Source: an uncultured Gemmatimonadaceae bacterium
GTDB lineage: Bacteria > Gemmatimonadota > Gemmatimonadetes > Gemmatimonadales > GWC2-71-9
DNA: 64,000 nt
NCBI GenBank assembly: GCA_964647615.1
Contig: CAZYIV010000008.1
Span: forward strand, 910 to 64,909
Reading direction: 5' to 3'
Positions 2,695 through 60,474 of the stretch are shown piece by piece; positions within the stretch are counted from its first letter, which is position 1; each line of letters starts with the position of its first letter. The notes beneath the pieces were generated by a model. That model did no database searches. It saw only the letters and a program-made list of their open reading frames with translations, and was not told the DNA's origin. The translations under genes were made by a program, and so were the position numbers.

Positions 2695-2703
2695 GCTAGT
2701 ATC
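2695..2703 (+). promoter_or_regulatory. Candidate extended -10 (TG-C-TAGTAT) for the kinase gene
   Basis: TGCTAGTAT lies about 56 nt upstream of the ATG at 2760, in a divergent intergenic region. Confidence 0.4.
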
Positions 2704-2759
2704 CCGCAACGCCCGGCGACCCGCGCCGGGCGGCTTGGTCTCCCCTCGCCCGGTGCCGG

Positions 2760-25264: not shown

Positions 25265-25384
25265 GGAGGGGTGCCTCTGGATCGAGTGAGGAACGGGAAT
25301 GCCGGAGTCGAGCCCAATGTTCCGGACCGGAGCGCGCCACACAATTGCGAGAATCTGGACGGTGTGCGATCCCTCGACGCTTCC

Positions 25385-25393
25385 TGATACAAT
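25385..25393 (+). promoter_or_regulatory. Candidate extended -10 (TG-A-TACAAT)
   Basis: TGATACAAT upstream of the pseudokinase-AlaX pair. Confidence 0.45.
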
Positions 25394-25551
25394 GCGGTAC
25401 GGGCCCCGGGGCCGGGGTGACGCCGGTCACCGGGCGGCGCCGGAACGTCCCCCGGCCCCTGGGCGATGGCCCGCCGGTTGCCCCTTCTCCCGCAGAGCCC
25501 GGAATGCGCCGGTACCCTCCCGCGCATCCCGCGTCGCTCACGGGAGAATGC

Positions 25552-39717: not shown

Positions 39718-39815
39718 GAGGCGTCCGTTCGTCGGGGTGTGCCGAAGGTACCGACGGGGCCCCCGGGGCAGAAGTGCGGTGCCGGGGGCTGCTGGCCCCG
39801 CCTTCCGGCGTGACC

Positions 39816-39821
39816 TATAAT
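39816..39821 (+). promoter_or_regulatory. Consensus -10 TATAAT
   Basis: About 46 nt upstream of the kinase GTG in GC-rich DNA. The -35 match is weak. Confidence 0.5.
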
Positions 39822-39867
39822 TGGGCTGCTTTTCGCCGGCCCTCACCCCCCACGCCCTCGTGGTGCC

Positions 39868-42426
<2,559 letters not shown>

Positions 42427-47781: not shown

Positions 47782-49074
47782 ATGACCACGCCCGCGCTCC
47801 CCGCCACCCCCGCCCCGCCGGCGCTCCCGCCGCGCAAGGACGACGCCACCCGGCGCGCCGACCTGGCACGCATGAAGCGCATCGCCACCGGGTTCCTGGT
47901 GGTGGCGGCGGCCGTCTTCGTGGTGACCCGCTGGTTCGAGCCGGCGTACCCCTGGCTCGGCTTCGTCCGCGCGACGGCGGAGGCGGCACTGGTGGGCGGT
48001 CTCGCCGACTGGTTCGCCGTGACGGCGCTGTTCCGCCGGCCCCTCGGCCTCCCCATCCCACACACCGCCATCATCCAGACCCAGCAGGCGCGCATCGGCC
48101 GGGTGCTGGGGAACTTCGTGCAGAATCACTTCCTCTCCCACGACGTGCTGGCCGAGCGGCTCGCCAGCATGCGGGTGGCGGAGCGGGCCGCGCGCTGGCT
48201 GGGGGAGGAGGAGAACAGCCGCCGGCTGGCGCGGCACCTGGCGGTGGGCGTCGCGCAGGCCATGCAGACCGTGGAGGAGGAGCAGGCCCGGGCGCTGATC
48301 CAGGAGAGCGCCGTGGCCCGGCTCCGCACCATGCAGCTGGCGCCGCTGCTCGGCAGCGTGCTCTCGGTGGTGGCCACCGACCAGCGGCACCAGGTGCTGC
48401 TGGACGAGGCGCTCCGGCTGGCGGGCGAGACGCTGGAGAAGAACCGGGATGAACTGGCCCGGCGCATCAAGGAGGAAAGCCCATGGTGGGTGCCCACCGC
48501 GGTGGACCAGGCCTTCCAGAAAAAGATCGAGACCGCGAGCCTGCGGCTGATCCAGGAGGTCCGCGCCGACCCGTTCCACCCGCTCCGGCTCAAGTTCGAC
48601 ATCGCGGTGCGGCAGTTCATCGAGCGGCTGCGCTCCTCGGAGGAGGTGCAGCAGCGGGCCGAGACGATGAAGGCGGAGCTGCTGGAGCACCCGGCGGTGG
48701 GGGAGTTCGCCGCGTCGCTGTGGGACCGGGCCCGCGGGGCGGCCGAGCGGTTCAGCGCGGACGCGAGCGACGAGACGCTCGCGCCGCTCTCCCGCGGCAT
48801 CGGCGCGGTGGGCCGGTCGCTGCTGGACAAGCCGGAACGGCTGTCGGAGCTGGACCAGGTGCTCACCGCCTTCGCCGCCTCGGTGGTGGAGCGGCACCGG
48901 CACGAGGTGGCGGACCTCATTGCCGAGACGGTCCGGCGCTGGGACCCGGACTACGCCGTGGAGCGGCTGGAGCTGGCCGTGGGACAGGACCTGCAGTTCA
49001 TCCGGCTCAACGGCACCCTGGTGGGCGGGCTGGCCGGGCTCATCATCTACAGCCTCTCGCTGCTCTTCCGCTGA
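47782..49074 (+). CDS. DUF445 family membrane protein
   Basis: MKRIATG, AEAALVGGLADWFAVTALFR.PLGLPIPHTAII and DLQFIRLNGTLVGG. Confidence 0.93.
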   Translation: MTTPALPATPAPPALPPRKDDATRRADLARMKRIATGFLVVAAAVFVVTRWFEPAYPWLGFVRATAEAALVGGLADWFAVTALFRRPLGLPIPHTAIIQTQQARIGRVLGNFVQNHFLSHDVLAERLASMRVAERAARWLGEEENSRRLARHLAVGVAQAMQTVEEEQARALIQESAVARLRTMQLAPLLGSVLSVVATDQRHQVLLDEALRLAGETLEKNRDELARRIKEESPWWVPTAVDQAFQKKIETASLRLIQEVRADPFHPLRLKFDIAVRQFIERLRSSEEVQQRAETMKAELLEHPAVGEFAASLWDRARGAAERFSADASDETLAPLSRGIGAVGRSLLDKPERLSELDQVLTAFAASVVERHRHEVADLIAETVRRWDPDYAVERLELAVGQDLQFIRLNGTLVGGLAGLIIYSLSLLFR

Positions 49075-49089
49075 CCCCGGCAGGCGCGG

Positions 49090-49125
49090 CACGGCCCCCG
49101 CACGCCGATGCGTGCGGGGGCCGTG
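49090..49125. terminator. 16-bp hairpin after lipoprotein paralog A (convergent with DUF445)
   Basis: CACGGCCCCCGCACGC-CGAT-GCGTGCGGGGGCCGTG. Homologous to the hairpin at 54548. Confidence 0.7.
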
Positions 49126-49139
49126 TGGCGTCCCCGGCA

Positions 49140-51578
49140 TCAGTTGATCGTGATCAGCTGGACCCGGGCATTGTTGAGCAGGTTGCTGTCGGCCTGGATG
49201 GAGCTCAGGCTGAAGGTCGTGGAGTAGCTCCCCGCCGCGACAGCCACCAGGGTCACGGTGAAGTCGGTCTTGCCACCGTTCACCAGGCTCGGCAGCTGGC
49301 AGCTGGTGCCCGTCACCGCGTCGTAGCTGCAGCCCAGGGTCCCGGTGTTCGCGGCGTAGGTGAAGCCCGCACTCGCCGGGATGGTGAAGGTCGCGCCGGG
49401 TGAGTCGTCGGGACCGAGATTCTCGTTCTGCAGCGTGACGGTGAAGGTATCGCCCACCGCCACGACCGGCGCGGCACTGAAGACGTGCAGCTCCAGGTTG
49501 GCGCTGCCGTCGTTGTCGATGATCGTCACCGTCACCGACGCCGGGGTGGCGCCGCTGTAGGCGGGGTCAGTGCTGCTGACGGTGTGGGTGATGGTCGCCG
49601 TCTGCGGCGGCGGTTCGAGCAGGGCGTCGTCCACCGCGCTCACCGGCACCGACAGGGGCAGGGCCCACGCCGCCGTGGTGAAGCTCACGGGCGCCAGGGC
49701 CGCGAGCTGACCGCCGGCGGAGGCGGGCGTCACGTCCACGGTGGCGGTGGGGGCGCTCCGCAGGCAGACATCATAACTGGCACCGGCCCCGCCTTCGGTG
49801 ACGGTCAGTGACGAGCGGTACACGCTGACGGGCGCCAGGGGACTGTACCCGACCAGCTCCAGAGCCCCGCTGGGATTGTAGGTGCGCCAGGCGCGGCTGG
49901 GCGCCGGCACCAGCCCGGTGACGGTCGCGAAGCTGCCGCGGTTGAGGGTGCCGGAACCGTCGGTGATGACCGGAATGACCTCACCGCAATGCCCACCCAG
50001 ATACAGCGGTCCCGGGAGTACTCGCAGCGTCCCGCCGTACACCACGAGTCCACTCACCGCCAGCAGGTCGTGACGGCCGGCGGCGCTGCCCGTCAGGTCG
50101 ATCACCACCGTGCTCGCCGGGTCGAGGTAGAGCCCGGTCGCGCTGAGGGTGCCCACGCCGGGGAGCACCGGAATGCTGGACACGGGTCCGGGCGCAATGG
50201 TGCCACCGGCCGAGAGCACCCCGCCGACCTGTCCCGTGCCACTCAGGGTCCCGCCCGACAGCCCGAGCAGTCCCGACTGCACACTTCCGGAATCGGCCTG
50301 GAAGTCTGCGCTGCCGAGGGAAAGGGTCTGGCCCGCGGCCACGGTGATCGTGCCGGCATTCTCCACATTCGAAAGCCAGGGAAGACTGGCCGGCCCGGCG
50401 AACGTGACCGTGCCGGTGTTCACCAGGCTGTCGAGCTTCAGGCTCAGCGTGCCCGTTCCCGCGTTGACCAGCAGGGTGCCGCTGTTGTGGACCACGGCCA
50501 GGGAGCCCCCGGAGAACTCAACGGTGACCACGTCCGTGGCTGCGGTATCCTGGGGCGTGACGCTGAGGGTGCCGCGACTGTCACTGGGCAGGTGCACCAG
50601 TCCGGCCCCGATGACGTTCACCCGGACGCCGGCCGGCAGCCCACCTGCAGGGGCCCCCACCCAGGGCTGGTCATACGGGTGGTACCAGCTGGCGAGCTGG
50701 TACAGGTCGAGTTCGATCGTCCCCGTCAGCGTGGAGTCGAGAACGTCGATCGAGACACCCTGGACCCGGACGCGGGCCGTGGTCGTCCCGAGCCGTGCCG
50801 GCAGGTCGCCACCCGTCCAGACGAACCTGGGGACGATGTACGGCTGCGTCGGCGGCGGGTACATCAGTGGAGGGACGATGGGCCAGAACTCCACCGCCCC
50901 GGCGCCCAGCACCGTGCCACCCTCCATCCGGAAGTCGACCGCCTCGACGGCATACTGCCGCAGCCGGCCCTCGGCGCCGGTGACCTGCAGCGTTCCCGCG
51001 TTCCGGAAGTACTGCGCGGGGTAGAGGTCCAGGGTGTCGCGCTGGGCCTCGAGGTAGCCGAGGTTGACGATCGAATCCGCCCCGATGTAGCCGGAGCGCC
51101 CGGGGTAGGCGGCGACCAGGCTGCCCTCGTTCACCACCCACGCGGCGGTGACGCTGAGTGCGGTGGTCATGGAGACGGTGCCGCCCGACTTCACGTACAG
51201 CCCGCCGGTCATGGACCAGGGGGCGTTGGCGGTGGTGGCGGAGACCGTGAGGGTCGGATTCGCACCGGCGCCACCGACCACCAGGAAGTCCACCGTGTCC
51301 GGGTTGGACAGGGTCACGGTGTACGTCCCGGCGGCATCGAGGCACACCGTCGCCAGTCTCCGCGGCACGCCGGTGGGGATCCAGTTGGTGCCCACCGACC
51401 AGTCGCCGCTCACCCCGGTCTTCCAGCGCTTGGTGCACGCCGGCGTCGTGACCAGTGCGGCCGGGGCACGGGGGGCGCTGACCGCCGGGCCGACATCGGC
51501 CGGGGCGGTGGGGTCGTCGGTGCAGGCAGCCAGGGAGAGCGCCGCCAGCGCCAGGAGGGGGAGCGTCGGGCACCGCAT
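49140..51578 (-). CDS. Surface lipoprotein paralog A (812 aa): beta-rich passenger-like region, Calx-beta/cadherin-like domain, C-terminal DUF11
   Basis: Lipobox LAAC, W..G..GDWS...NW.P.GVP, G.HD.L.VSG....GGTL, VTEGG....Y.VCL.S.P...AVDD and NLGPDDS...D.N..NN. Confidence 0.85.
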   Translation of the reverse strand: MRCPTLPLLALAALSLAACTDDPTAPADVGPAVSAPRAPAALVTTPACTKRWKTGVSGDWSVGTNWIPTGVPRRLATVCLDAAGTYTVTLSNPDTVDFLVVGGAGANPTLTVSATTANAPWSMTGGLYVKSGGTVSMTTALSVTAAWVVNEGSLVAAYPGRSGYIGADSIVNLGYLEAQRDTLDLYPAQYFRNAGTLQVTGAEGRLRQYAVEAVDFRMEGGTVLGAGAVEFWPIVPPLMYPPPTQPYIVPRFVWTGGDLPARLGTTTARVRVQGVSIDVLDSTLTGTIELDLYQLASWYHPYDQPWVGAPAGGLPAGVRVNVIGAGLVHLPSDSRGTLSVTPQDTAATDVVTVEFSGGSLAVVHNSGTLLVNAGTGTLSLKLDSLVNTGTVTFAGPASLPWLSNVENAGTITVAAGQTLSLGSADFQADSGSVQSGLLGLSGGTLSGTGQVGGVLSAGGTIAPGPVSSIPVLPGVGTLSATGLYLDPASTVVIDLTGSAAGRHDLLAVSGLVVYGGTLRVLPGPLYLGGHCGEVIPVITDGSGTLNRGSFATVTGLVPAPSRAWRTYNPSGALELVGYSPLAPVSVYRSSLTVTEGGAGASYDVCLRSAPTATVDVTPASAGGQLAALAPVSFTTAAWALPLSVPVSAVDDALLEPPPQTATITHTVSSTDPAYSGATPASVTVTIIDNDGSANLELHVFSAAPVVAVGDTFTVTLQNENLGPDDSPGATFTIPASAGFTYAANTGTLGCSYDAVTGTSCQLPSLVNGGKTDFTVTLVAVAAGSYSTTFSLSSIQADSNLLNNARVQLITIN

Positions 51579-51606
51579 GAACGGTCTCCAGAGAGGGTCA
51601 TCTTCC

Positions 51607-51636
51607 ATGGCGTCGAACCCCCGCCGGCCGGGACAT
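51607..51636 (-). promoter_or_regulatory. Putative ECF promoter ATGTCC-N18-CGCCAT (copy 1)
   Basis: On the + strand, ATGGCG at 51607-51612 and GGACAT at 51631-51636. It lies 28 nt from the paralog A ATG. Confidence 0.7.
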
Positions 51637-51650
51637 CCTGCGGAGCGCAC

Positions 51651-51688
51651 CACGCCCCCGGCGGCCGGGCCGGCCACCGGGGGCGTGT
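51651..51688. terminator. Hairpin after the GT2 gene
   Basis: CACGCCCCCGG...CCGGGGGCGTG. Confidence 0.55.
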
Positions 51689-51702
51689 GCCCGCCTGCCC
51701 TC

Positions 51703-53475
51703 CTAGAAGTGGAATCCGTAGCCGAAGAACACCGGCTGCATGCCCAGCAGCCCCAGCCCGCCGATCGCCAGCCCGCCCAGGATCAGCACGAACGGCAGGT
51801 ACACCAGGCGCTGCACCAGCGGATGCTCCCACGGCACGTGGTGCAGCAGCGGCAGCATCACGAACGCCACCGCCAGGCCCAGGAAGCTGAGCTGCACCAG
51901 CTGCAGGCAGGCCACCCCGAAGACCAGCCCGCAGGCCATCTCGAATCCCTGCACCAGCGGGTGATCCGGGTGGCTGCCGGCGATGGCCCGGCGCACCGAG
52001 GCCCACGCCCGCCCCCACGGCGTCCCGCTCGTGCGTTCGGCGACCGCCCGGCTCTTGTCGCCGGTGACGAGGAAGGTGGCCTTGCCGGTCAACAGGTAGC
52101 CCACCACCCCGAGGGATGACATCGGCCCCAGCGCGGCATACATCACCGTGCTCTGGCACAGGAAGCGGAACAGCTGGCGGGGTTTCCCCAGGAGCTCGAT
52201 CACGAAGCACAGGATCGGCGCGATGAACGTGAGCAGGGTGATCAGGAAGAAGTCCCAGCTCTGCACCACCGCGAAGCGCGGGTCCAGCGCGCGGGTCGGC
52301 AGCACCAGCGCGGTGCCGCCCAGTTCCAGCGTCATCGGGTGCGGCTGGGTGAACAGGAAGCCGAACACCAGGTTGGCATCCACCACGAACAGGAAGTACA
52401 CCAGCGCGAGCGGCAGGCTGAGCGCCGGGAAGAGCACGTCCAGCTTCTCCACCAGCGGGATGCGCCGGGCCCGCAGGGCAGGCCACATCTCCCGGGCGAA
52501 GAACTCGCAGGTGCCGCGGGTCCACTTCATGTGCCGCACCCGGAAGGCGCGGATGGTCTCCGGGAACTCCTCGTAGCAGATGACGTCCTCGGCGAAGCGG
52601 CCATGCCAGCCGTGCTGCCGGGCCCGGAGCGAGAAGGCCAGGTCCTCGGAGACGATCTCGGGGAAGCCGCCGATCTCCTGCCACACCTGCCGCCGGATGA
52701 CTGCCCCGTGACCCAGCAGCATCACGAAGCCCCAGCGGTTGCGGAGCGGGTGGTACCAGCGCCAGTGGATATCAATGCCGACCCCCACCGCCGACTGCAG
52801 TGCCCCCCGGCCCTCGGGGTTGGCCCGGTGGTTGGCCTGGACGAAGCCGCAGCGATCGTCCGCCAGCAGCATCGGCACCATCCGCCGCAGGAAGTTGGGC
52901 GGCAGGATCTCGTCGGCGTCCACCAGGGCGAACAGCGGCTCCGTCACGGCCGCGGTGCGGAGGCCGTGATTGGTGTTCCCCGCCTTGAAGCCGGACCGGT
53001 CGGGGCGCCGCACCACCCGCACCCGCTCGCCGTGCCGCGCCGCGAAGGCGTCCACCCGGGCCCGCGCCTCGGGATCGCTGCTGTCGTCGAGCAGGTACAG
53101 GGTCCAGTGCGGGTAGTCCTGGTGGAGGCAGGAGACCGCGCTCTCCTCCACGAAGTCGTTGCAGGTGAGGTAGAGCAGCGCCACCGCCGGCGGGTCCGCC
53201 GGAAGCGGCGGGGGCAGCCGCACTCCATGCACCCGGCGCCGCCGCTGGTGCACCCAGGCGAAGAGCACCACGCCGACGTTGTAGAACCCGTACAGCCACG
53301 CCAGTTCCGTGAACAGGATGAAGAACAGCACCGCACCGGTGGCGAACGCGCCGTGAGCCAGGCCCAGCAGGCTGAGCAGCCGGGGATGGAACCAGGCGAG
53401 GCTCGCGCCCCACGCCGCGAAGATCGCGAGGTACAGCGTGGGCCGGGCGCCCGGAGAAGGAGTGGCGGTGGTCAT
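51703..53475 (-). CDS. Processive membrane GT2 glycosyltransferase (cellulose-synthase-like)
   Basis: N- and C-terminal TM helices, LLDDS, GFKAGN, VDADE, VSED and RHMKW (QxxRW variant). No PilZ domain visible. Confidence 0.92.
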   Translation of the reverse strand: MTTATPSPGARPTLYLAIFAAWGASLAWFHPRLLSLLGLAHGAFATGAVLFFILFTELAWLYGFYNVGVVLFAWVHQRRRRVHGVRLPPPLPADPPAVALLYLTCNDFVEESAVSCLHQDYPHWTLYLLDDSSDPEARARVDAFAARHGERVRVVRRPDRSGFKAGNTNHGLRTAAVTEPLFALVDADEILPPNFLRRMVPMLLADDRCGFVQANHRANPEGRGALQSAVGVGIDIHWRWYHPLRNRWGFVMLLGHGAVIRRQVWQEIGGFPEIVSEDLAFSLRARQHGWHGRFAEDVICYEEFPETIRAFRVRHMKWTRGTCEFFAREMWPALRARRIPLVEKLDVLFPALSLPLALVYFLFVVDANLVFGFLFTQPHPMTLELGGTALVLPTRALDPRFAVVQSWDFFLITLLTFIAPILCFVIELLGKPRQLFRFLCQSTVMYAALGPMSSLGVVGYLLTGKATFLVTGDKSRAVAERTSGTPWGRAWASVRRAIAGSHPDHPLVQGFEMACGLVFGVACLQLVQLSFLGLAVAFVMLPLLHHVPWEHPLVQRLVYLPFVLILGGLAIGGLGLLGMQPVFFGYGFHF

Positions 53476-54314
53476 GGCTGGCGCACCTGCAGGGCCAGCC
53501 CCGCGGCCACAGAGGTGAGGTCGCTGGTGCCCGGCGCCCGCTCGTGCCGCACCATGAAGTGGACCTGCTGCGCGGCACCGAGGCCCAGCGTCAACCGGCC
53601 GTAGGCATCCCACACCGTGCCGTCGAACCCGGCAGGCGACCCGGAGATCCGCCCGGTGGCGACGCCGCCACCCACCCCGATGCCGGCCCCGGGATGCAGC
53701 TCCGCCGCCAGCAGCACCCGCCACTGGGCTTCCTGGCCCACACCGCTCCGGGCGTAGAACACAATCGGCTCCACCCGGAGCGCCGGGCCCACCGGCGTGT
53801 TGAACCCGGCGTGCGCCACCCACTCGGTGCGGTGGTCGGCCCGCGGGCCGGCTTCGACCCCTGCCTTGAGTGCTGTCGCACCGCGGTAGACCACCTGCTC
53901 CGCGCCGAGCAGCGTCTGCCCGATGCCGCCGGGGAGGGTCCGCCGGCCCGCCTGCAGCACCGTGGTGTAGTGCCCGCCCCAGTTGAGCAGCGCGCCGCCG
54001 CTCCAGGTCGGCACCCGCCGCCCGGCGCGAAGCAGCGTGAGGTTGTCGAGGCTCAGGCTGTTGTCGTACCGCCCGAAGAGGCGCATGGCCCCGGACGGCC
54101 AGACCGCCACTTCCAGGGAGCGGAGCCCGAGCCCGGTGGCCTTGTCACCGGCCGGCGTGGTGGGCGCGTTCGCAAAGCTCGAGTACGCGCCCCAGGCCGA
54201 GAGCTCGAGCACGGGGCGGGACGGCGCGGACTGGGCGGCGACCGGGACCCCCGCGGCGAGGGACAGTGTTGCCAGCAGGGCAGGAGCGCGGAGAGGTCGT
54301 GGGGGGAGTGGCAT
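53472..54314 (-). CDS. YaiO-like outer-membrane beta-barrel protein
   Basis: Signal peptide and alternating amphipathic beta-strands, about 280 aa. ATGA overlap with the GT2 start. The family call is from recall and context. Confidence 0.7.
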   Translation of the reverse strand: MPLPPRPLRAPALLATLSLAAGVPVAAQSAPSRPVLELSAWGAYSSFANAPTTPAGDKATGLGLRSLEVAVWPSGAMRLFGRYDNSLSLDNLTLLRAGRRVPTWSGGALLNWGGHYTTVLQAGRRTLPGGIGQTLLGAEQVVYRGATALKAGVEAGPRADHRTEWVAHAGFNTPVGPALRVEPIVFYARSGVGQEAQWRVLLAAELHPGAGIGVGGGVATGRISGSPAGFDGTVWDAYGRLTLGLGAAQQVHFMVRHERAPGTSDLTSVAAGLALQVRQP

Positions 54315-54547
54315 GGCTCGCTCCGGGACAGGGACGCCCGCAGCCACCATGGTGCGGGGATGCCCCGGAGAAGGCAGATGATGCGCCACACCACCGCCGC
54401 TCCGCGTGAGGCGTGCAGCGCGTTGTCCGGCAACGAGATGCGGCGCGGACCCGGAGGCCGCGCGGCGGCGGCGCACTCGACCGAATCGGCGCAGCCTCGC
54501 TCGAATCGGGACAGTGCACCGGATGGGCGGCCGGCCGCGCACGACAT

Positions 54548-54579
54548 GGCCCCCCGCACGCAGCCGCGTGCGGGGGGCC
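54548..54579. terminator. 14-bp hairpin after lipoprotein paralog B
   Basis: GGCCCCCCGCACGC-AGCC-GCGTGCGGGGGGCC. Confidence 0.7.
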
Positions 54580-54596
54580 GTCTCGCCTCCCCGGCT

Positions 54597-56918
54597 TCAG
54601 TTGACCGTGATCAGCTGGACCCGCGCGTTGTTGAGCGGGTTGCTGTCGGGCTGGGTGGAACTCAGGCTGTAGGTCGTCGAGTAACTCCCCGTCGCGACGG
54701 CCACCAGGGTCACGGTGAAGTCGGTCTTGCCACCGTTCACCAGGCTCGGCAGCTGGCAGGTGGTGCCCGTCACCGCGTCGTAGCTGCAGCCGAGGGTCCC
54801 GGTGTTCGCGGCGTAGCTGAAGCCCGTGCTCGCCGGGATGGTGAAGGTCGCGCCGGGCGAGTCGTCGGGACCCAGGTTCTCGTTCTGCAGCGTGATGGTG
54901 AAGCTGTCGCCCACCGCCACTACCGGCGGCGCGCTGACCACGTGCAGCTCCAGGTTGGCGCTGCCGTCGTTGTCCACGATCGTCACCGTGATGCTGCCGA
55001 GCGGGGCGTTCAGGTACGGCGGCGTGGTGCTGGTCACCGTGTGCTGGAGGTCCTCGAGCTGCGGCGGCGGCTCCCGCACGGAGTCATCCACCGCCCCGAC
55101 GGTGAGGGTGCGGGGGAGCCCCCAGTCGGTGCTGGTGAACGTGACGGCAGCGGGCGGTACCAGCTGGCCCAGGGGCGAGCTGGCACTCACGGTGACCGGC
55201 GTGACCGGCTGGCTCCGGAGACACACGCTGTAGCTGGCCCCGGCCCCGCCCTCCGTGACCGTCAGCGAATCCGGCGCGCGGGTCACGGCGAGCAACGGGT
55301 TGTGGCCGACGAGGTAGAGCGAGTCGGCCGGGTTGTGGAGGCGCCAGCCCCGGCCCGGGCCCGGCGTCAGGCCCAGGAACTTGGTGAACGCCCCGCGCGG
55401 CCCGGAGCTGTGGTCCCGGATGATGGGGATCGCCTGGCCGCATACCGCGCTCACGAACGGCGCAATCTCGGTGACCGAGAGGGTCCCGGCGTACGTCACC
55501 CCCCAGGAGACGAACACCTGGTCGTACTCCCCCTTCGCGGTGCCGGCGACGTCGATATCCACGCTGCTGGAGCCATCCATCACCAGGCTGGCCAGGCCGA
55601 GCTGGCCGATCGGCAGCCCCGGCTGGACCTGCGTCCCCGTGAGGACCACGTCGCCGACGCTGCCCACGCCGATGAGGCGGCCGCCGGTCATGTTGAGCCT
55701 CCCGTTATGGTAGGACCCCGCTTCCGCGATGAAGTCGGCGTAGGTGGTGGTCAGGGACGCACCGTAGGCCATCAGCTTGCCCCGATTCCGGACCAGCATG
55801 CCCGCCCGCCCGAACGTGGCCGAGTCCCCGACGGTCGTCACGCTGTCATTCACCAGGCTGTCGGCGAGGAGCACCATGCCGGGCCGGCCAATGAGCGCGA
55901 ACACACCGGCATTCATCACGGCGGTGGCGGACACGGTGTCTTCCATGCTGTCCCCGACTTCGCCGGCGATGGTCAGGTACCCGTCGTTGACGAAGGGCCG
56001 GCTGCCGACCCCGTGGAGCTGCAGGGACCCCCGCACGGTGGCGACGATGGCGGCGCCCGCCGGGAGGTGACCGATGATGCTCGACGGGCGGGTCAGGTAG
56101 AGGACCCCGCTGTCGGCGCCCGAGACCTTGATGGTCTGGGCATAGGCCGAGAATCCGAGCGAACTCACGCTGCCACCCGCCCACACCAACGTGCCGGCCT
56201 GAGCTCCCCCATACCCCGTGAAGGACAGGTACCCGCTCCCCGTCACGGCGCCGCCCTCCATCCGCAACTCGCCCGGGACGACGGCAATGTCCTGCATGCT
56301 GAGGTGCGAGGCCCCGTTGACTTCGATGGTCCCCGTGTTCCGGAAGCCGACGGGGCCGAGAGAACTGACCAGGACGGTGCCCGAGTCGGTCCGCAGCGTC
56401 CCGTAGTTCACCAGGGAATCGAGCACGAGGTCGCTCGGCGCCTGCCAGTGGAGCGTGCCACTCACCTCGACGTAGCCGGTCGAGACCGTCACCGTCTTGG
56501 CGGCGTTGAGGATGAGCCTGCCGCTCTGGACATCGATGCCGGTCGGCACCCGCCAGGTCCCCGCGGCCGCGGGCACGAAGCGGAGCGTGGGTGTGGCACT
56601 GCCGCCGCCGATCACGATCGCCTCCACCGTATCCAGCTTGGCCAGGGTGACGGTATAGCTGCCGGCCGCGTCGAGGCAGGCGATGTCGGTGGCCGTCGGC
56701 ACCCCGGAGGGTGTCCAGCTGGCGGCCGCGCCCCACTGCCCGTTGCTGCCGTTCTTCCAGTGCTTGGTGCAGGCGGGAAAGGCGGCGGTGGAGGTGTGCA
56801 CCGCGGGGCGCACGGCCGCCGAGTCAACCAGCGGCTGCCGTGGAGAGGTGGCGTCCTCGCCGCAGGCGGCCAGGGTCAGGGCCGCCAGCGCCAGGAGGGG
56901 GAGAGTCGGGCAGCGCAT
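54597..56918 (-). CDS. Surface lipoprotein paralog B (773 aa), same architecture as A
   Basis: Near-identical signal peptide (MRCPTLPLLALAAL.LAAC) and DUF11 tail, with a divergent middle. Confidence 0.85.
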   Translation of the reverse strand: MRCPTLPLLALAALTLAACGEDATSPRQPLVDSAAVRPAVHTSTAAFPACTKHWKNGSNGQWGAAASWTPSGVPTATDIACLDAAGSYTVTLAKLDTVEAIVIGGGSATPTLRFVPAAAGTWRVPTGIDVQSGRLILNAAKTVTVSTGYVEVSGTLHWQAPSDLVLDSLVNYGTLRTDSGTVLVSSLGPVGFRNTGTIEVNGASHLSMQDIAVVPGELRMEGGAVTGSGYLSFTGYGGAQAGTLVWAGGSVSSLGFSAYAQTIKVSGADSGVLYLTRPSSIIGHLPAGAAIVATVRGSLQLHGVGSRPFVNDGYLTIAGEVGDSMEDTVSATAVMNAGVFALIGRPGMVLLADSLVNDSVTTVGDSATFGRAGMLVRNRGKLMAYGASLTTTYADFIAEAGSYHNGRLNMTGGRLIGVGSVGDVVLTGTQVQPGLPIGQLGLASLVMDGSSSVDIDVAGTAKGEYDQVFVSWGVTYAGTLSVTEIAPFVSAVCGQAIPIIRDHSSGPRGAFTKFLGLTPGPGRGWRLHNPADSLYLVGHNPLLAVTRAPDSLTVTEGGAGASYSVCLRSQPVTPVTVSASSPLGQLVPPAAVTFTSTDWGLPRTLTVGAVDDSVREPPPQLEDLQHTVTSTTPPYLNAPLGSITVTIVDNDGSANLELHVVSAPPVVAVGDSFTITLQNENLGPDDSPGATFTIPASTGFSYAANTGTLGCSYDAVTGTTCQLPSLVNGGKTDFTVTLVAVATGSYSTTYSLSSTQPDSNPLNNARVQLITVN

Positions 56919-56946
56919 CGAAGGGCTCCAGGTGTGGTCACCTTCA

Positions 56947-56976
56947 ATGGCGATGGACCTGCGTCGCGCGGGACAT
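56947..56976 (-). promoter_or_regulatory. Putative ECF promoter ATGTCC-N18-CGCCAT (copy 2)
   Basis: On the + strand, ATGGCG at 56947-56952 and GGACAT at 56971-56976. It lies 28 nt from the paralog B ATG. Confidence 0.7.
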
Positions 56977-57036
56977 GCTGGAGATTGCCCCACGCCCCCG
57001 GCGGCCGGGGCGGCGGGCGGGACCGGTCGGAGCCCT

Positions 57037-59766
57037 TCAGGGATGGGCGAGTCGCTGGCGCGCCTCGCGGCCCCACTTGAGGATGAGCGGGTCGGCGAGG
57101 CCCCAGGCTTCCATCGCGTTGCAGCCTTCGTCCAGCTGCAGCCGGGCCTCCGCGGTGCGTCCGGCCCCGGCGAGGGCCACCCCGAGCAGGCACTCGAGCT
57201 GGGCGCTCGCGAAGCGGATCGGCGCGCCGGGCTGGCGCGTTCCCTCATACGCGGCGCTCGCGCGGATGACCGCGGCGTCGAATCGCCGCTGCGCGATGGC
57301 CACCATGGCGCCCCAGCGATCCAGGTCGTTGTGCTTGGGCGAGCCCGGCGGGTGCACCGTCGGCAGGACGCTGTCGGCGAACGCCAGCGAGGTCACCGCC
57401 TCGGGCAGCCGGCCCTGCCTGAGCAGCAGCGGGATCCGCTGCCCTCCCAGGTAGGCGAGGTAGGGCGGCGACACGGGGGTGGCCCGCCGGACCATGCGCA
57501 TCGCGGAGTCGAGCAGCGCGAGCCCCTCGTCGGTCCGTCCCCGTGCGGCCCGGAGCAGCGCGAGGTTCCGCACCGCGCTCGCCACCAGCCCGTGGTTCGG
57601 GGCGAGTCCCTCGGCGTAGTACGAGACGGCCAGGGCCTCCAGCGAATCCGCCTCCGCGAGCTTGCCCAGGGCGGCGATGGTGAGCGCCAGCCGCTCATAG
57701 ACCCCGGCCCGGTCCGCGGCGCCGACCGGCTTGCCGGTGACCGCCGCCAGCGTGGCCCGCTGCAGCGACTCCGCGGCAGCGAGCTGCCCGGACTGCCCCA
57801 GGGCAACGCTCAGGTTGTTGGTGATGGTCTGGAGCACCGGATTGTCAGGCGGCAGCTGTTCGCCCAGCATGGTGAGCGTCTGCTCGAACAGTGCCGCGGC
57901 TTCCAGCGACCGCCCCTGCCCCAGCAGCTCGATCGCCTGGGTATGCATCCGGTTGGCGATCGACAGCGTGTCGAGGCCGGAATCGGCGGACTCCAGCGCG
58001 ACCAGCTCCGCGAAGAGGGCCTGCCGCCGGCGCCGGTCCGGGGTGACGGCCGCCAGGTCGTTGATCGCGACCCGCAGGTCCGGGGCGCCGGGCGGTTCGA
58101 TCCGCCGGAGGGTCGCCAGGGACGAGTCGAACATGGGGCGCGCCGCCTCGGCGCCGCGGTAGCTGAGCACCGCCACCGCCAGCTCGTGGTACATGATCGC
58201 CGCCTGCTCGTCGTCGGCGCCGGCCAGGGCCACCCGCAGGTCCACTGCCCGCCGCAGCAGCGACTCGGCGCGGGCGTACTCGCCCCGCGCTCCGCGCATC
58301 TCACCCACGGTCTTGAGCAGCGCCGCCTGCCGGGCCGAGTCCTCCGCCAGCTGCGCGATCCGCTGCTCCGCCTCGTCCAGCAGGGCCACCACCCGCACGG
58401 TGTCGCCCCCGGCCACCTTGCGCGGGTTGGCCCGGTCGAACAGGCCGGTGAGGATCTGCACCATGTCGGTGGCGACGGCGCGCTCCTGCTCGGCCCGGTC
58501 CCGCTCCCGCGCGGCGCGGCGGGCCTGCAGCGTGGCGGTGACGGCGGTGCCCACCAGCAGGGCACCCGTGACCACGCCCGCCACCACCAGCGCACGGTTG
58601 CGGGCCAGGAACTTTTCCGCCCGGTACCCGAACCGGTCCGGCTGGGCCCGCACCGGCAGCCCCGCGAGGTACCGTTCCACGTCGTCGGCCAGGGCGGTGG
58701 CGGAGCCGTAGCGCCGGTCCGGTTCCTTGCGCAGCGCCGCTTGCACGATCACATCCAGGTCGCCTCGCAGCCGCCGGGCCAGCGCCCGGTCGGTCACGCT
58801 GGCGCTCGCGAGCGGCGCCGGCGCCTCGAGGATGGCGCGCTCCAGCTCCAGCAGGGTGCGGTGTGCCGCGGGGAACGGCGTGCGTTCGGTCAGCAGCTGG
58901 AAGAGCAGCACCCCGAGCCCGTACACATCGGTGCGGGTGTCGCACGGCTCGCCGCGGAGCTGTTCCGGGGCGGCATGCTCCGGGGTGAGCAGGCGGCTCT
59001 CCGGCCGGGTGGGATGCACCAGCGAGGCATCGGCATCGGGGTCGAGCAGCCGCGCGATGCCGAAGTCGAGCAGCCGCGGCGTGCCGTCGGCCTCGACCAG
59101 GATGTTGGACGGCTTGAGGTCCCGGTGGATCACCAGCTGCGCGTGGGCGAACTCCACCACCCGCGCCACCCGCACGAACAGCCGGAGCCGCGCCTCGAGG
59201 TCGAGCCCCCGGTCCCGCACGAACCGGGTGATCGGGCTCCCATCCACATACTGCAGCACCAGGTAGGGCCGCCCGTCGGCGAGCGAGCCGCCGTCCACGA
59301 TGGCCGCGATCCCCGGGTGCACCAGCCGCGCCAGCGCCTGCCGCTCCACCCGGAATCGGCGCACCGTCTCCGCGGTGCGGTACCCTGGCCGGAGCACCTT
59401 GAGCGCCACCACCTGGCGGTAGGCACCGTCCACCCGCTCCGCCCGGTAGACCTCGCCCATGCCGCCCTGCCCGACCAGCGCCTCGACCCGCCACGGCCCC
59501 ACCCGGCTGCCCGCAGGGAGGTCGTGCGCCCGGAGCAGCGGATCCGAGGGCCGCAGCCGGCGTTCCTCCTCGAACAGCAGCGGGGTGCCGTCCTCGTGGG
59601 CGGCGAGCATGGCCAGCAGCTCGCGCAGGAGCTCAGGGTCGTTGGGGGTGGCGTGCAGCAGGTAGGGACGGCGGTCGGGTCCGGGCAGCTCCAGCGCCGC
59701 CGCGAACAAGTCCGACAGCCGGCTCCAGCGTTCCTGGGGGCTCGAGGGGCGGGGATCCGGGGACAT
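57037..59766 (-). CDS. Membrane Ser/Thr kinase with TPR region, cognate of the ECF sigma factor
   Basis: N-terminal W.RL..LF.AALEL....R..YL helix typical of TIGR02999-linked kinases, GQGGMGEVY, VALK, HRDLKPSN, DFG, APEQ, RRLRGDLD.I...AL.KEPDRRY, TM helix and TPRs. Confidence 0.93.
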   Translation of the reverse strand: MSPDPRPSSPQERWSRLSDLFAAALELPGPDRRPYLLHATPNDPELLRELLAMLAAHEDGTPLLFEEERRLRPSDPLLRAHDLPAGSRVGPWRVEALVGQGGMGEVYRAERVDGAYRQVVALKVLRPGYRTAETVRRFRVERQALARLVHPGIAAIVDGGSLADGRPYLVLQYVDGSPITRFVRDRGLDLEARLRLFVRVARVVEFAHAQLVIHRDLKPSNILVEADGTPRLLDFGIARLLDPDADASLVHPTRPESRLLTPEHAAPEQLRGEPCDTRTDVYGLGVLLFQLLTERTPFPAAHRTLLELERAILEAPAPLASASVTDRALARRLRGDLDVIVQAALRKEPDRRYGSATALADDVERYLAGLPVRAQPDRFGYRAEKFLARNRALVVAGVVTGALLVGTAVTATLQARRAARERDRAEQERAVATDMVQILTGLFDRANPRKVAGGDTVRVVALLDEAEQRIAQLAEDSARQAALLKTVGEMRGARGEYARAESLLRRAVDLRVALAGADDEQAAIMYHELAVAVLSYRGAEAARPMFDSSLATLRRIEPPGAPDLRVAINDLAAVTPDRRRRQALFAELVALESADSGLDTLSIANRMHTQAIELLGQGRSLEAAALFEQTLTMLGEQLPPDNPVLQTITNNLSVALGQSGQLAAAESLQRATLAAVTGKPVGAADRAGVYERLALTIAALGKLAEADSLEALAVSYYAEGLAPNHGLVASAVRNLALLRAARGRTDEGLALLDSAMRMVRRATPVSPPYLAYLGGQRIPLLLRQGRLPEAVTSLAFADSVLPTVHPPGSPKHNDLDRWGAMVAIAQRRFDAAVIRASAAYEGTRQPGAPIRFASAQLECLLGVALAGAGRTAEARLQLDEGCNAMEAWGLADPLILKWGREARQRLAHP

Positions 59767-59777
59767 TCTGCTCCTGA

Positions 59778-59807
59778 ATGGCGACGGTCGCCGCCCCGGC
59801 CGGACAT
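59778..59807 (-). promoter_or_regulatory. Putative ECF promoter ATGTCC-N18-CGCCAT (copy 3)
   Basis: On the + strand, ATGGCG at 59778-59783 and GGACAT at 59802-59807, in the 58-nt gap between the sigma and kinase genes. Confidence 0.7.
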
Positions 59808-59824
59808 CCCCGGCCGGCGGAGGG

Positions 59825-60355
59825 CTACTCCGGCAGGTCGAGCGCCTGGGCGACTTCCTTCCGCAGCCAGGCCCGGGCGGCGAGCCAGTCGCGCTGGACG
59901 GTCTTGCCGGAGACGCCCAGCAGGTCGCCGGTCTCCTCCAGCGACAATCCCCCGAAGAACCGGTACCGCACCACCTCGGCGCCGCGGGGACTCACCTCCT
60001 CCAGCCGCTCCAGCGCCTCGTCCAGCACCACGAGGTGGTCGGCCTCCTCGGTGGTGAGGAGCATCTCCGCGTCCTCCAGCGGGACCGGCGTCGCGCCGCC
60101 TCCGCGCTTCTGCCGCAACCGGGTCCGGGCGTAGTCCACCAGGATCCGGCGCATGGTGGTGACCGCGATGGCGAAGAACCGGGGCCGCTCCGGCTCGTCC
60201 AGGCCGCTCTGCGCCGCGAGCCGAAGCCAGGCCTCGTTCACCAGCCCGCTGGTATCGAGGGTGTGGCCCACCCGCTCCCGGCGCAGCAGCCCCCGCGCGA
60301 TCTGGCGCAGTTCGTCGTAGTGCTGGGCAATCAGGTCGGCAGCGGTATCGGGCAT
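59825..60355 (-). CDS. ECF sigma factor, TIGR02999/Sigma70_ECF (ECF43/EcfK-like)
   Basis: Y.ELRQIAR.LL.RER.GHTL...LV.EAWLRL, FFAIA...MRRILVDYAR...QKRGG and FFGGLS.EE....L.VS..TV.RDW..ARAWL. Confidence 0.93.
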   Translation of the reverse strand: MPDTAADLIAQHYDELRQIARGLLRRERVGHTLDTSGLVNEAWLRLAAQSGLDEPERPRFFAIAVTTMRRILVDYARTRLRQKRGGGATPVPLEDAEMLLTTEEADHLVVLDEALERLEEVSPRGAEVVRYRFFGGLSLEETGDLLGVSGKTVQRDWLAARAWLRKEVAQALDLPE

Positions 60356-60474
60356 GTCGCCAAGATGCAGGGCGGGTCGCGAGGGCGGAAGGCGGCCCCC
60401 GGAGACCCGAAGTCAGAGTGACGTGGATCACGGGCGGTGCTATCCTACGACCGACCCGTCACAGTGATAAGACG

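What the first reader, a model, noticed from the sequence alone, without database searches (positions are those of the whole stretch)
49140..60355. Candidate phosphorylation-switched ECF regulon for surface adhesins plus an exopolysaccharide synthase/export pair
Seen: six co-oriented genes - ECF sigma, TPR Ser/Thr kinase, lipoprotein B, OM barrel, GT2 synthase, lipoprotein A - with one shared promoter-like element before the kinase and both lipoproteins. Established: TIGR02999/ECF43 sigmas (Xanthomonas EcfK/PknS, Vibrio EcfP/PknT) are switched on by their cognate kinase. Inference: here the switch controls a cell-surface/attachment module rather than T6SS or polymyxin resistance. I do not know of this architecture being described in Gemmatimonadota.
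Basis: partly seen in the sequence, partly recalled or inferred. Interest (0 to 1): 0.85.

Follow-up and report, generated by a model that had tools for sequence, protein, structure and literature searches.

The report
Kinase-linked sigma factor controlling surface lipoproteins
A Gemmatimonadota gene cluster holds an alternative sigma factor, its partner membrane kinase and two lipoprotein genes that share a conserved promoter, while the neighbouring sugar-polymer synthase and outer-membrane barrel pair looks like a separate unit that is merely adjacent.

Summary
Six co-oriented minus-strand genes lie at 49140-60355. ATGTCC-N18-CGCCAT occurs exactly three times in the 64 kb window: before the kinase and before each lipoprotein gene.

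- **Conserved core.** The unit is a triad: TIGR02999/ECF43-type sigma, transmembrane Hanks kinase with a periplasmic TPR domain, and one or two lipoproteins with a C-terminal DUF11 (CLIPPER) domain. It recurs in every related Gemmatimonadota locus with enough sequence, including one with inverted gene order and a lineage with 62% sigma identity.
- **Promoter.** TGTCC-N18-CGCCA precedes every kinase and every lipoprotein gene (19 distinct instances, spacer not conserved) and nothing else.
- **Barrel/GT2 pair.** It has no such element. A strong hairpin separates it from lipoprotein B, and it has its own conserved sigma-54-like block. It is missing from some triads and occurs without any triad elsewhere. 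In other phyla the GT2 gene pairs with a TPR-barrel gene.
- **YaiO.** Membership is not supported.
- **Phospho-site.** The canonical phospho-threonine is Ser here and Gly in the nearest orthologues, so the site of the switch is uncertain.

Verdict: a new member of a known kind, with a well-supported predicted mini-regulon and moderate interest.

The parts
59825..60355 (-). ECF sigma factor (176 aa), TIGR02999 / PF07638, ECF43-like. Region 2.2 reads HTLDTSGLVNEAW; the linker carries T100-T101-E-E.
   Evidence: 176.4 bits against a cut-off of 126.15; alignment with orthologues and family members
59778..59807 (-). Promoter-like element P(kinase), ATGTCC-N18-CGCCAT, in the 58-nt sigma-kinase spacer. 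It ends 11 nt before the kinase ATG.
   Evidence: conserved before every orthologous kinase gene
57037..59766 (-). Hanks-type Ser/Thr kinase (909 aa): ~90-aa N-terminal region, catalytic domain 93-360, one TM helix 391-413, ~495-aa periplasmic TPR domain.
   Evidence: GQGGMG, VALK, HRDLKPSN, DFG and APE motifs present
56947..56976 (-). Promoter-like element P(lipoB), ATGTCC-N18-CGCCAT, 28 nt upstream of the ATG with a GGAG Shine-Dalgarno between.
54597..56918 (-). Lipoprotein B (773 aa): lipobox LAAC, all-beta family-specific N-terminal module, Calx-beta-like Ig domain, C-terminal DUF11 (CLIPPER) domain.
   Evidence: a 95%-identical orthologue in the same gene order in L110
54548..54579 (-). 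14-bp GC-rich hairpin starting 18 nt after the lipoprotein B stop codon (terminator-like, no U tract).
54373..54388 (-). Sigma-54-like -24/-12 block TGGCGCATCATCTGCC (GG-N10-GC), about 60 nt upstream of the barrel gene.
   Evidence: Conserved in all 7 aligned barrel upstream regions, including loci without sigma or kinase; coordinates. A single occurrence is not significant on its own.
53472..54314 (-). Outer-membrane beta-barrel protein (280 aa, signal peptide plus 14 strands). It is homologous to the C-terminal barrel of TPR-barrel proteins coupled to GT2 orthologues in other phyla.
   Evidence: (best structural match the PgaA barrel 4Y25)
51703..53475 (-). Membrane-embedded family-2 glycosyltransferase (590 aa; two N-terminal and four to six C-terminal TM segments; DxD, SED and RHMKW motifs), translationally coupled to the barrel gene.
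51651..51687 (-). 17-bp GC hairpin after the GT2 stop codon, just upstream of P(lipoA).
51607..51636 (-). Promoter-like element P(lipoA), ATGTCC-N18-CGCCAT, 28 nt upstream of the ATG.
49140..51578 (-). Lipoprotein A (812 aa), paralogue of B (45% identity overall). The last ~420 nt of the coding sequence are 88-97% identical to B, which indicates gene conversion.
49092..49123 (-). GC hairpin after the lipoprotein A stop codon, between it and the convergent DUF445 gene.

Best explanation
The functional unit is a three-part module: an ECF43-type sigma factor, its cognate transmembrane Hanks kinase, and one or more lipoproteins carrying a CLIPPER domain.

1. The kinase senses a periplasmic or envelope cue through its ~495-aa TPR domain. 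This step is inferred.
2. It phosphorylates the sigma factor so that sigma can bind core RNA polymerase. This is inferred from the EcfP/PknT and EcfK/PknS precedents. The acceptor here is probably Thr35/Ser36 in region 2.2 and/or Thr100/Thr101 in the linker.
3. The holoenzyme then starts transcription at TGTCC-N18-CGCCA(T) promoters. That this element is a conserved, position-specific bipartite motif is shown. That this sigma reads it is inferred.
4. One promoter sits in the sigma-kinase spacer. It would give positive feedback on the kinase alone, through a nearly leaderless transcript.
5. One promoter precedes each lipoprotein gene. Each of these genes is a monocistronic output unit closed by a GC hairpin.
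6. The lipoproteins are extracytoplasmic, lipid-anchored, all-beta proteins ending in Calx-beta-like and CLIPPER Ig domains. They are likely cell-surface or adhesin-like proteins.

The barrel-GT2 pair between the two lipoprotein genes is a separate, widely distributed two-gene cassette for making and exporting a polysaccharide. It has its own promoter, probably sigma-54 type. It is a neighbour of the ECF regulon, not a member.
For: **Family and pairing**
- The sigma passes the TIGR02999 cut-off, and a catalytically complete kinase lies 58 nt downstream.
- ECF43 sigma factors are activated by their cognate kinases (PMC8999054, PMC13147305).

**Synteny**
- The triad is present in L081, L084, L086, L090-L094, L105 and L110 (sigma ~88% identical where the gene is on the contig). 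L110 carries kinase, lipoprotein B and barrel, but not the sigma gene.
- It is also present in L082, where sigma-kinase is divergent from two tandem lipoprotein genes.
- It is present in L102, L103 and L107, a distant lineage (sigma 62%, kinase 46%, lipoprotein 32% identity).

**Motif**
- There are 19 distinct instances, one before every kinase gene and one before every lipoprotein gene. The spacing is always N18 and the spacer sequence is not conserved.
- The distant lineage uses CGCCAG at both its kinase and its lipoprotein gene.
- No exact TGTCC-N18-CGCCAT match lies anywhere else in 351 kb of these loci. One exact hit to the shorter TGTCC-N18-CGCCA core lies inside the L082 kinase gene. 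Only 2 hits (N17-19) occur in 1.35 Mb of ECF43-kinase loci from other phyla.
- A paralogous lipoprotein gene 5.5 kb from the sigma gene in L100 keeps the motif.

**Output units**
- Hairpins follow lipoprotein B, GT2 and lipoprotein A.
- Lipoproteins: invariant lipobox Cys and conserved Cys pairs; all-beta AlphaFold model with pLDDT 82, whose C-terminus matches tandem Ig, Calx-beta and AgI/II adhesin domains; DUF11 is the CLIPPER adhesin-stalk domain (PMC12617251).

**Independence of the cassette:**
Against: - No transcript, transcription-start or phosphorylation data exist for this organism.
- The canonical ECF43 phospho-threonine (QxTA) is Ser in this sigma and Gly in its closest orthologues (DTGG). 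The first acidic residue of the DAED position is retained. The switch may therefore work differently, or may be partly constitutive.
- The 18-nt spacing and the CGCCA -10 element are not the classic ECF GGAAC/CGTC pattern.
- No motif precedes the sigma gene itself, which is unusual for ECF sigma factors.
- The barrel-GT2 pair is adjacent to the triad in the window and in at least three further distinct related sequences (the L081, L090 and L098 groups). Read-through or a functional link is therefore not excluded.
- A degenerate TGTCC-N17-CGCCGA lies at 54486-54513, upstream of the barrel gene. It is not conserved in orthologues, which have TGTTT there.
- Only 64 kb of the genome is visible, so the full regulon is unknown.
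Confidence: 0.6

Rival explanations
1. One reading: all six genes form one phospho-ECF regulon, and the barrel/GT2 export pair is co-induced with the lipoproteins, for example by read-through from P(lipoB).
For: - All six genes are co-oriented, and the pair is adjacent to the triad in the window, L110, L081/L086, L090-L094, L098 and L104.
- GC hairpins without U tracts can be leaky terminators.
- A degenerate TGTCC-N17-CGCCGA lies at 54486-54513.
Against: - No conserved ECF motif lies before the barrel gene in any locus. Orthologues have TGTTT at the degenerate site.
- A 14-bp hairpin follows lipoprotein B, and 285 nt separate it from the barrel gene.
- A separate sigma-54-like block is conserved even in loci that lack the triad.
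- Triads occur without the pair (L084, L082, L107), and the pair occurs without the triad (L095-L097, L108, L109).
Confidence: 0.15
2. The conserved TGTCC-N18-CGCCA element is not read by this sigma. It is the target of another ECF sigma or of a DNA-binding regulator, and the local sigma's real targets lie elsewhere.
For: - The assignment rests only on co-localisation.
- The motif is absent from the sigma gene's own upstream region.
- The hexamers differ from typical ECF consensus sequences.
Against: - The motif follows the sigma-kinase-lipoprotein set through three different gene arrangements.
- It changes in step (CGCCAT to CGCCAG at both promoters) in the lineage where the sigma has diverged to 62% identity.
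- It is bipartite, non-palindromic and fixed in spacing.
- It sits 9-45 nt upstream of start codons, with a Shine-Dalgarno downstream at the lipoprotein genes, as expected for a promoter.
Confidence: 0.1
3. The sigma and kinase are partners, but the canonical region-2.2 phospho-threonine switch does not apply in this clade. Activation would use only the linker site, or the sigma would be largely constitutive while the kinase acts on other substrates or by binding.
For: - The position equivalent to EcfP Thr63 / EcfK Thr51 is Ser36 here and Gly in five close orthologues. Asp is retained at the first DAED position.
- EcfK T51A is still functional, and linker Thr106 can substitute for it (PMC13147305).
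- The linker here carries T100-T101-E-E.
Against: - Thr35, next to the canonical site, is invariant in all orthologues.
- Two of the three acidic DAED positions are still uncharged (Ser/Gly and Gly).
- The distant lineage keeps the canonical GTTA.
- The strict sigma-kinase adjacency is maintained.
Confidence: 0.15

Closest known systems
EcfK/PknS of Xanthomonas citri (ECF43 sigma plus transmembrane Hanks kinase; PMC13147305)
   Same: - The sigma family is the same (TIGR02999/PF07638, HTLxxxxLVxEA region 2.2).
- The kinase gene is adjacent.
- The kinase has an N-terminal pre-kinase region of about 80-90 aa, a single TM helix and a large extracytoplasmic domain.
- Ser/Thr and acidic residues in the sigma2-sigma4 linker could serve as a second activation site.
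   Different: - The output is T6SS genes in X. citri and lipoprotein genes here.
- Region 2.2 reads DTSG (DTGG in orthologues) instead of QTTA, so the canonical Thr51 equivalent is not conserved.
- Here a sigma-type promoter lies between the sigma and kinase genes, giving feedback on the kinase only.
- Nothing is experimentally tested here.
EcfP/PknT of Vibrio parahaemolyticus (PMC8999054, reviewing Iyer et al. 2020)
   Same: The sigma is intrinsically inactive because the acidic DAED patch is missing, and kinase phosphorylation restores it. The sigma and kinase genes are paired, and no anti-sigma factor is present.
   Different: - The EcfP regulon confers polymyxin resistance.
- EcfP has STTA, and the second Thr is phosphorylated. 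Here the equivalent residue is Ser, and it is Gly in the nearest relatives.
- One acidic residue is retained here.
Synthase-dependent polysaccharide systems with a TPR-porin (PgaA/PgaC, BcsC/BcsA)
   Same: - A membrane-embedded GT2 is encoded next to, and translationally coupled with, an outer-membrane beta-barrel.
- The barrel model's best structural match is the PgaA barrel.
- Homologues in Myxococcota and another phylum carry the TPR-plus-barrel fusion typical of PgaA and BcsC.
   Different: - GT2 scores far below the PgaC and BcsA cut-offs (63 bits against 422 and 699).
- The QxxRW motif reads RHMKW.
- No PilZ or other c-di-GMP module is found.
- The Gemmatimonadota barrel lacks the TPR part.
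- The product is unknown, and no deacetylase or periplasmic partner is present.
CLIPPER (DUF11) fibrillar adhesins (PMC12617251)
   Same: The C-terminal domain passes the PF01345 cut-off. The protein is secreted and all-beta, with Ig-like stalk-type domains.
   Different: - It has a single CLIPPER domain rather than a tandem stalk.
- It is anchored by an N-terminal lipid rather than by a sortase or OmpA-type anchor.
- The ~550-aa N-terminal module has no known family.
- Isopeptide-forming residues were not verified.

Membership tests
ECF43 / TIGR02999 kinase-regulated ECF sigma factors | Sequence passes the TIGR02999 (Sig-70_X6) and PF07638 profiles | tested here: met
   176.4 bits against a cut-off of 126.15; PF07638 at 152 bits
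ECF43 / TIGR02999 kinase-regulated ECF sigma factors | Gene adjacent to a Hanks-type Ser/Thr kinase gene, with no anti-sigma factor gene | tested here: met
   The kinase gene is 58 nt downstream. The pairing is kept in every related locus that includes the sigma gene. The other neighbour is a PQQ dehydrogenase gene.
ECF43 / TIGR02999 kinase-regulated ECF sigma factors | The acidic DAED patch of region 2.2 is replaced by an uncharged motif with a conserved phospho-acceptor Thr (QTTA/STTA) | tested here: inconclusive
   The window has DTSG, with Ser at the acceptor position. Five close orthologues have DTGG (Gly). The distant lineage has GTTA. Family members from other phyla have Q-x-T-A. Two of three acidic positions are lost, and the neighbouring Thr35 is invariant.
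ECF43 / TIGR02999 kinase-regulated ECF sigma factors | Direct phosphorylation by the cognate kinase activates transcription | not testable with these tools
   Needs a kinase assay with mass spectrometry and reporter assays
Hanks-type (eukaryote-like) Ser/Thr kinases | Complete catalytic motifs: Gly-rich loop, VAxK lysine, HRDxKxxN, DFG, APE | tested here: met
   GQGGMG, VALK, HRDLKPSN, DFG and APE are seen in the sequence. Pkinase scores 130.8 bits.
YaiO family outer-membrane beta-barrel | Match to the YaiO family profiles of Pfam or NCBIfam | tested here: not met
   No hit at E<=10 for the protein or for 15 homologues, and none for two TPR-barrel homologues from other phyla. Only the generic beta-barrel fold is supported.
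Synthase-dependent exopolysaccharide systems (Pga/Bcs-like) | Inner-membrane multi-TM GT2 synthase with the processive-type catalytic motifs (D, DxD, [ST]ED, QxxRW) | tested here: inconclusive
   The GT2 domain and 6-8 TM segments are present, as are DDS, DAD and SED. QxxRW reads RHMKW. Scores are far below the PgaC and CelA cut-offs. The nearest solved relative is ceramide glucosyltransferase at E=5e-5.
Synthase-dependent exopolysaccharide systems (Pga/Bcs-like) | Dedicated outer-membrane beta-barrel porin, usually fused to periplasmic TPR repeats, encoded with the synthase | tested here: met
   The barrel and GT2 genes overlap by 4 nt in every locus. The barrel profile matches the C-terminus of TPR-barrel proteins encoded upstream of GT2 orthologues (hhalign E=3e-32 and 3e-35). 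The top structural match is the PgaA barrel. The TPR part is missing in Gemmatimonadota.
Synthase-dependent exopolysaccharide systems (Pga/Bcs-like) | c-di-GMP receptor module (PilZ or similar) on or beside the synthase | tested here: not met
   No such Pfam or NCBIfam domain is found in GT2 or its neighbours.
Bacterial lipoproteins | Signal peptide ending in a lipobox L-[AS]-[GA]-C with an invariant Cys | tested here: met
   ...LSLAAC / ...LTLAAC. Cys19 is invariant across 10 family members.
CLIPPER/DUF11 fibrillar adhesins | CLIPPER domains, typically as a tandem stalk, with an intramolecular isopeptide bond | tested here: inconclusive
   A single C-terminal PF01345 domain is present (45 bits against a cut-off of 24.6). 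There is no tandem array. The isopeptide triad was not verified.

The most novel reading that the evidence does not exclude
The lipoprotein may be both the output of the circuit and the envelope partner that the kinase's periplasmic TPR domain monitors. That would make a closed loop reporting on the state of the cell's own surface protein. In addition, this Gemmatimonadota clade may have abandoned the canonical region-2.2 phospho-threonine, which is Gly in the nearest orthologues. Activation would then run through a shifted site (Thr35) or through the linker only (Thr100/Thr101). Together these would define a mechanistically distinct subtype of phospho-regulated ECF sigma, with a kinase-only feedback promoter.
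Probability: 0.15. Interest if true: 0.6.

Novelty: new member of a known kind. Interest (0 to 1): 0.4.

Why it matters
Only a few kinase-activated ECF sigma factors have a known regulon: T6SS for EcfK and polymyxin resistance for EcfP. Gemmatimonadota regulation is almost unstudied.

This locus gives a compact prediction backed by comparative genomics:
- a defined promoter motif;
- feedback on the kinase alone;
- one or two lipoprotein outputs.

The prediction can be tested directly in a heterologous host. The natural variation at the phospho-acceptor position (Thr, Ser or Gly) bears on the open question of whether region 2.2 or the linker is the decisive phosphorylation site in ECF43 sigma factors.

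Separately, the work exposes a widely conserved but uncharacterised cassette of a barrel (or TPR-barrel) gene plus a GT2 gene, found in several phyla.

Tried and rejected
- **Genome-contig scan with the kinase.** It returned only distant kinases (39% identity or less over the long matches) from other phyla and no orthologue. The loci were reused as a negative control for the motif and for the family's region-2.2 consensus.
- **YaiO assignment.** No Pfam or NCBIfam hit at E<=10 for the barrel, for 15 homologues, or for the two TPR-barrel relatives from other phyla. Rejected.
- **PDB sequence searches with GT2.** The single sequence found nothing. The profile found only weak GT-A hits: ceramide glucosyltransferase, heparosan synthase and SpsA. 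The product cannot be named.
- **Foldseek with the whole lipoprotein model.** It matched only the C-terminal Ig domains. The fold class of the N-terminal module (possibly a beta-solenoid) remains unverified.
- **HMMER search of the 1.8-billion-protein library with the lipoprotein profile.** Results were dominated by giant proteins that repeat the Calx-beta-like domain (profile positions ~556-666). Only about 18 full-length relatives appeared among the top 150.
- **Rfam scan of 48900-60600.** No RNA family, so no riboswitch before the GT2 operon.
- **Search for a sigma-54 activator (GAFTGA) or an RpoN box in the window and loci.** Only chance hits, so the sigma-54 idea remains a lead.
- **Generic sigma-70 promoter and U-tract terminator scan.** Uninformative at 72% GC.

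Full report
**1. What is in the sequence.** The window has about 72% G+C, so long spurious ORFs abound. Third-position GC periodicity singles out six consecutive minus-strand genes between 49140 and 60355. They are bounded by a divergent PQQ-dehydrogenase gene (from about 60418, plus strand) and a convergent DUF445 gene (47782-49074, plus strand). With starts refined at signal peptides or conserved N-termini, the genes are:
- sigma, 59825-60355
- kinase, 57037-59766
- lipoprotein B, 54597-56918
- a 280-aa secreted protein, 53472-54314
- a GT2 enzyme, 51703-53475, overlapping the previous gene by 4 nt
- lipoprotein A, 49140-51578

**2. What the proteins are.**
- The sigma scores 176 bits on TIGR02999 (cut-off 126) and 152 bits on PF07638.
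- The kinase has a complete Hanks catalytic core, one TM helix (391-413) and a TPR-rich C-terminal half of about 495 aa, which must be periplasmic.
- Lipoproteins A and B are paralogues (45% identity) with a lipobox and a C-terminal DUF11 domain.
- The 280-aa protein has no family hit. AlphaFold models it with confidence (pLDDT 85) as a signal peptide plus a 14-strand beta-barrel.

**3. The shared element.** ATGTCC-N18-CGCCAT occurs exactly three times in 64 kb. It lies 11 nt before the kinase ATG and 28 nt before each lipoprotein ATG. With one mismatch allowed, 0.25 matches are expected, and no shuffle reached three. The A and B copies are not independent. A and B DNA is 73-82% identical from about -80 to +40, and 88-97% identical over the last ~420 nt of the coding sequence plus the downstream hairpin, against about 50% in between. 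That pattern indicates gene conversion at the 3' end. The case therefore rests on the kinase copy and on other genomes.

**4. Relatives.** A scan of species-representative genomes with the kinase found only distant kinases. Homologues of the lipoprotein and the barrel led to the orthologous loci.
- *Triad conserved.* Sigma-kinase-lipoprotein is present wherever the contig is long enough: L081/L086, L084, L090-L094 and L105 (sigma ~88% identical), and L110, a near-identical strain with the same order as the window (its contig holds kinase, B and barrel but not sigma).
- *Inverted order.* In L082 the sigma-kinase pair is divergent from two tandem lipoprotein genes.
- *Distant lineage.* In L102/L103/L107/L089 the identities are sigma 62%, kinase 46% and lipoprotein 32%.
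- *Motif.* In all of these loci TGTCC-N18-CGCCA(T/G/C) lies directly upstream of every kinase gene and every lipoprotein gene. That gives 19 distinct sequences, always with N18 spacing and an unconserved spacer.
- *Co-variation.* The distant lineage uses CGCCAG at both its promoters.
- *Unlinked copy.* In L100 an extra lipoprotein paralogue 5.5 kb from the sigma gene, beyond two PQQ-type genes, still carries the element.
- *Background.* No exact TGTCC-N18-CGCCAT match lies anywhere else in 351 kb, and three distinct one-mismatch hits fall inside genes. One of these (inside the L082 kinase gene) is an exact hit to the shorter TGTCC-N18-CGCCA core. In 1.35 Mb of ECF43-kinase loci from other phyla there are two hits.
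- *Promoter-like position.* The element sits 20-45 nt upstream of lipoprotein start codons, with a GGAG in between, and 9-13 nt upstream of kinase start codons.
This is phylogenetic-footprint evidence for a promoter that travels with this sigma. It does not occur upstream of the sigma gene itself.

**5. The barrel/GT2 pair is a separate unit.**
- No ECF-type element precedes the barrel gene in any locus.
- A 14-bp GC hairpin follows the lipoprotein B stop codon, and 285 nt separate B from the barrel gene. Similar hairpins close the GT2 gene and lipoprotein A.
- In an alignment of seven barrel upstream regions, the conserved features are a GG-N10-GC block (window TGGCGCATCATCTGCC, 54373-54388), which resembles a sigma-54 -24/-12 promoter, and the Shine-Dalgarno. 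The block is kept in loci that have no sigma, kinase or lipoprotein.
- The pair is always translationally coupled, but its context varies. It follows the triad in the window's close relatives. It is absent from the triad in L084, where the lipoprotein gene abuts the same DUF445 gene, and in L082 and L107. It stands next to a two-component system (L095/L096) or unrelated genes (L097).
- The GT2 family is large and strongly conserved across phyla (more than 771 hits; 55-65% identity in Myxococcota, Nitrospirota and Acidobacteriota).
- In Anaeromyxobacter oryzae and one other genome, the gene overlapping its start encodes a 499-547-aa protein with N-terminal TPR repeats. The C-terminal 240 residues of that protein are homologous to the Gemmatimonadota barrel (hhalign E=3e-32 and 3e-35).
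- The barrel model's best structural match is the PgaA porin domain.
The 'synthase plus export porin' reading is therefore reasonable. Membership of the ECF regulon is not supported, and YaiO membership fails every profile test.

**6. The lipoproteins.** Ten family members share an invariant lipobox Cys, a CT[KH]xW...VC[IL] N-terminal motif and further conserved Cys pairs, as expected for extracytoplasmic proteins. The AlphaFold model (pLDDT 82) is all-beta. Structural matches cover only the C-terminal tandem Ig region: integrin leg, Calx-beta and AgI/II adhesin C-domains. DUF11 has recently been renamed CLIPPER and described as a CnaA-like stalk domain of surface adhesins (PMC12617251). A full HMMER search shows that the Calx-beta-like segment is shared with thousands of giant repeat proteins. 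Full-length relatives are few, about 18 clusters among the top 150. 'Surface or adhesin-like lipoprotein' is an inference, not a demonstrated function.

**7. The switch.** ECF43 sigma factors lack the acidic DAED patch of region 2.2 and are activated when their kinase phosphorylates the Thr in Q/S-T-T-A. EcfK also uses a linker Thr (PMC8999054, PMC13147305).
- Sigma genes next to the 80 distant kinases read HTLQxTALVHEAY.
- This sigma reads HTLDTSGLVNEAW, with Ser at the acceptor position.
- Its five close orthologues read DTGG, with Gly at that position.
- The distant lineage reads GTTA.
- Thr35 is invariant, and the linker carries T100-T101-E-E.
The family-level mechanism probably holds, but the acceptor residue is uncertain in this clade.

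**8. Model and verdict.**
- *Shown:* the gene content; the conserved triad; the conserved, position-specific bipartite element; the independence of the barrel/GT2 cassette.
- *Inferred:* the sigma reads that element; the kinase activates the sigma by phosphorylation; the kinase promoter gives positive feedback; the lipoproteins are surface proteins; the barrel/GT2 pair makes and exports a polysaccharide under sigma-54 control.

This is a new, well-delimited member of the known class of kinase-regulated ECF systems, in a little-studied phylum, with a natural variant at the phospho-acceptor position. It is not a new architecture, and the six-gene 'regulon' shrinks to a triad with one or more paralogous outputs.

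Noticed in passing
window 54373-54388 (-); L081, L090, L095, L097, L098, L104 upstream of the barrel gene: A conserved GG-N10-GC block (TGGCGCATCATCTGCC) lies about 60 nt upstream of the barrel-GT2 operon and looks like a sigma-54 -24/-12 promoter. It is kept in loci that lack the ECF triad. No activator gene or rpoN was found in the sequence available.
   Followed up: partly
window 49140-49560 versus 54597-55017 (3' ends of lipoproteins A and B plus the downstream hairpins): The last ~420 nt of the two paralogues are 88-97% identical at the DNA level, against about 50% for the rest. This indicates recent gene conversion of the CLIPPER domain and terminator region.
   Followed up: yes
L108:4505-7851 (Anaeromyxobacter oryzae AP025591.1) and L109:4361-7863: A two-gene cassette of a TPR-beta-barrel protein and a GT2 enzyme (4-nt overlap) is conserved across phyla. 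The Gemmatimonadota version has lost the TPR half. The GT2 enzyme is 55-65% identical between phyla, yet no curated family names it.
   Followed up: partly
sigma residues 33-36 (window about 60250-60261, minus strand); L081, L082, L084, L090, L105, L102, L107: The canonical ECF43 phospho-acceptor position varies within this clade: Thr in the distant lineage, Ser in the window and Gly in the five closest orthologues. The preceding Thr is invariant.
   Followed up: partly
window 59780-59815 (-); L081, L084, L090 sigma-kinase spacers: In the window and three close relatives, a 7-9-bp GC hairpin brackets or overlaps the TGTCC box in the sigma-kinase spacer. It may limit read-through from the sigma gene into the kinase gene. 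It is absent in L082, L105 and L102.
   Followed up: partly
L090:7348-9749 (GCA_016702955.1): The lipoprotein gene is split into two ORFs (283 + 517 aa) in this MAG, but is intact (800 aa) in near-identical metagenome contigs L091-L094. The cause is a frameshift, an assembly error or a pseudogene.
   Followed up: no
window 2700-4682 (+), 25039-26403 (+), 39814-42423 (+): Three further ORFs resemble Ser/Thr kinases (phmmer E=8e-30, 9e-12 and 4e-26). The window holds no second TIGR02999-like sigma.
   Followed up: no
window 54486-54513 (-): A degenerate TGTCC-N17-CGCCGA lies about 170 nt upstream of the barrel gene. Orthologues instead have a palindrome, CTGTTTCGAAACAG, at this position. That could be a regulator or enhancer site for the barrel-GT2 operon.
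   Followed up: partly
L100:5881-8307 with 13847-14302: An additional lipoprotein paralogue with the ECF-type promoter lies 5.5 kb upstream of the sigma gene, beyond the PQQ_2 and PQQ genes. The regulon can therefore include unlinked copies. The window ends at 64000, before the equivalent position.
   Followed up: partly
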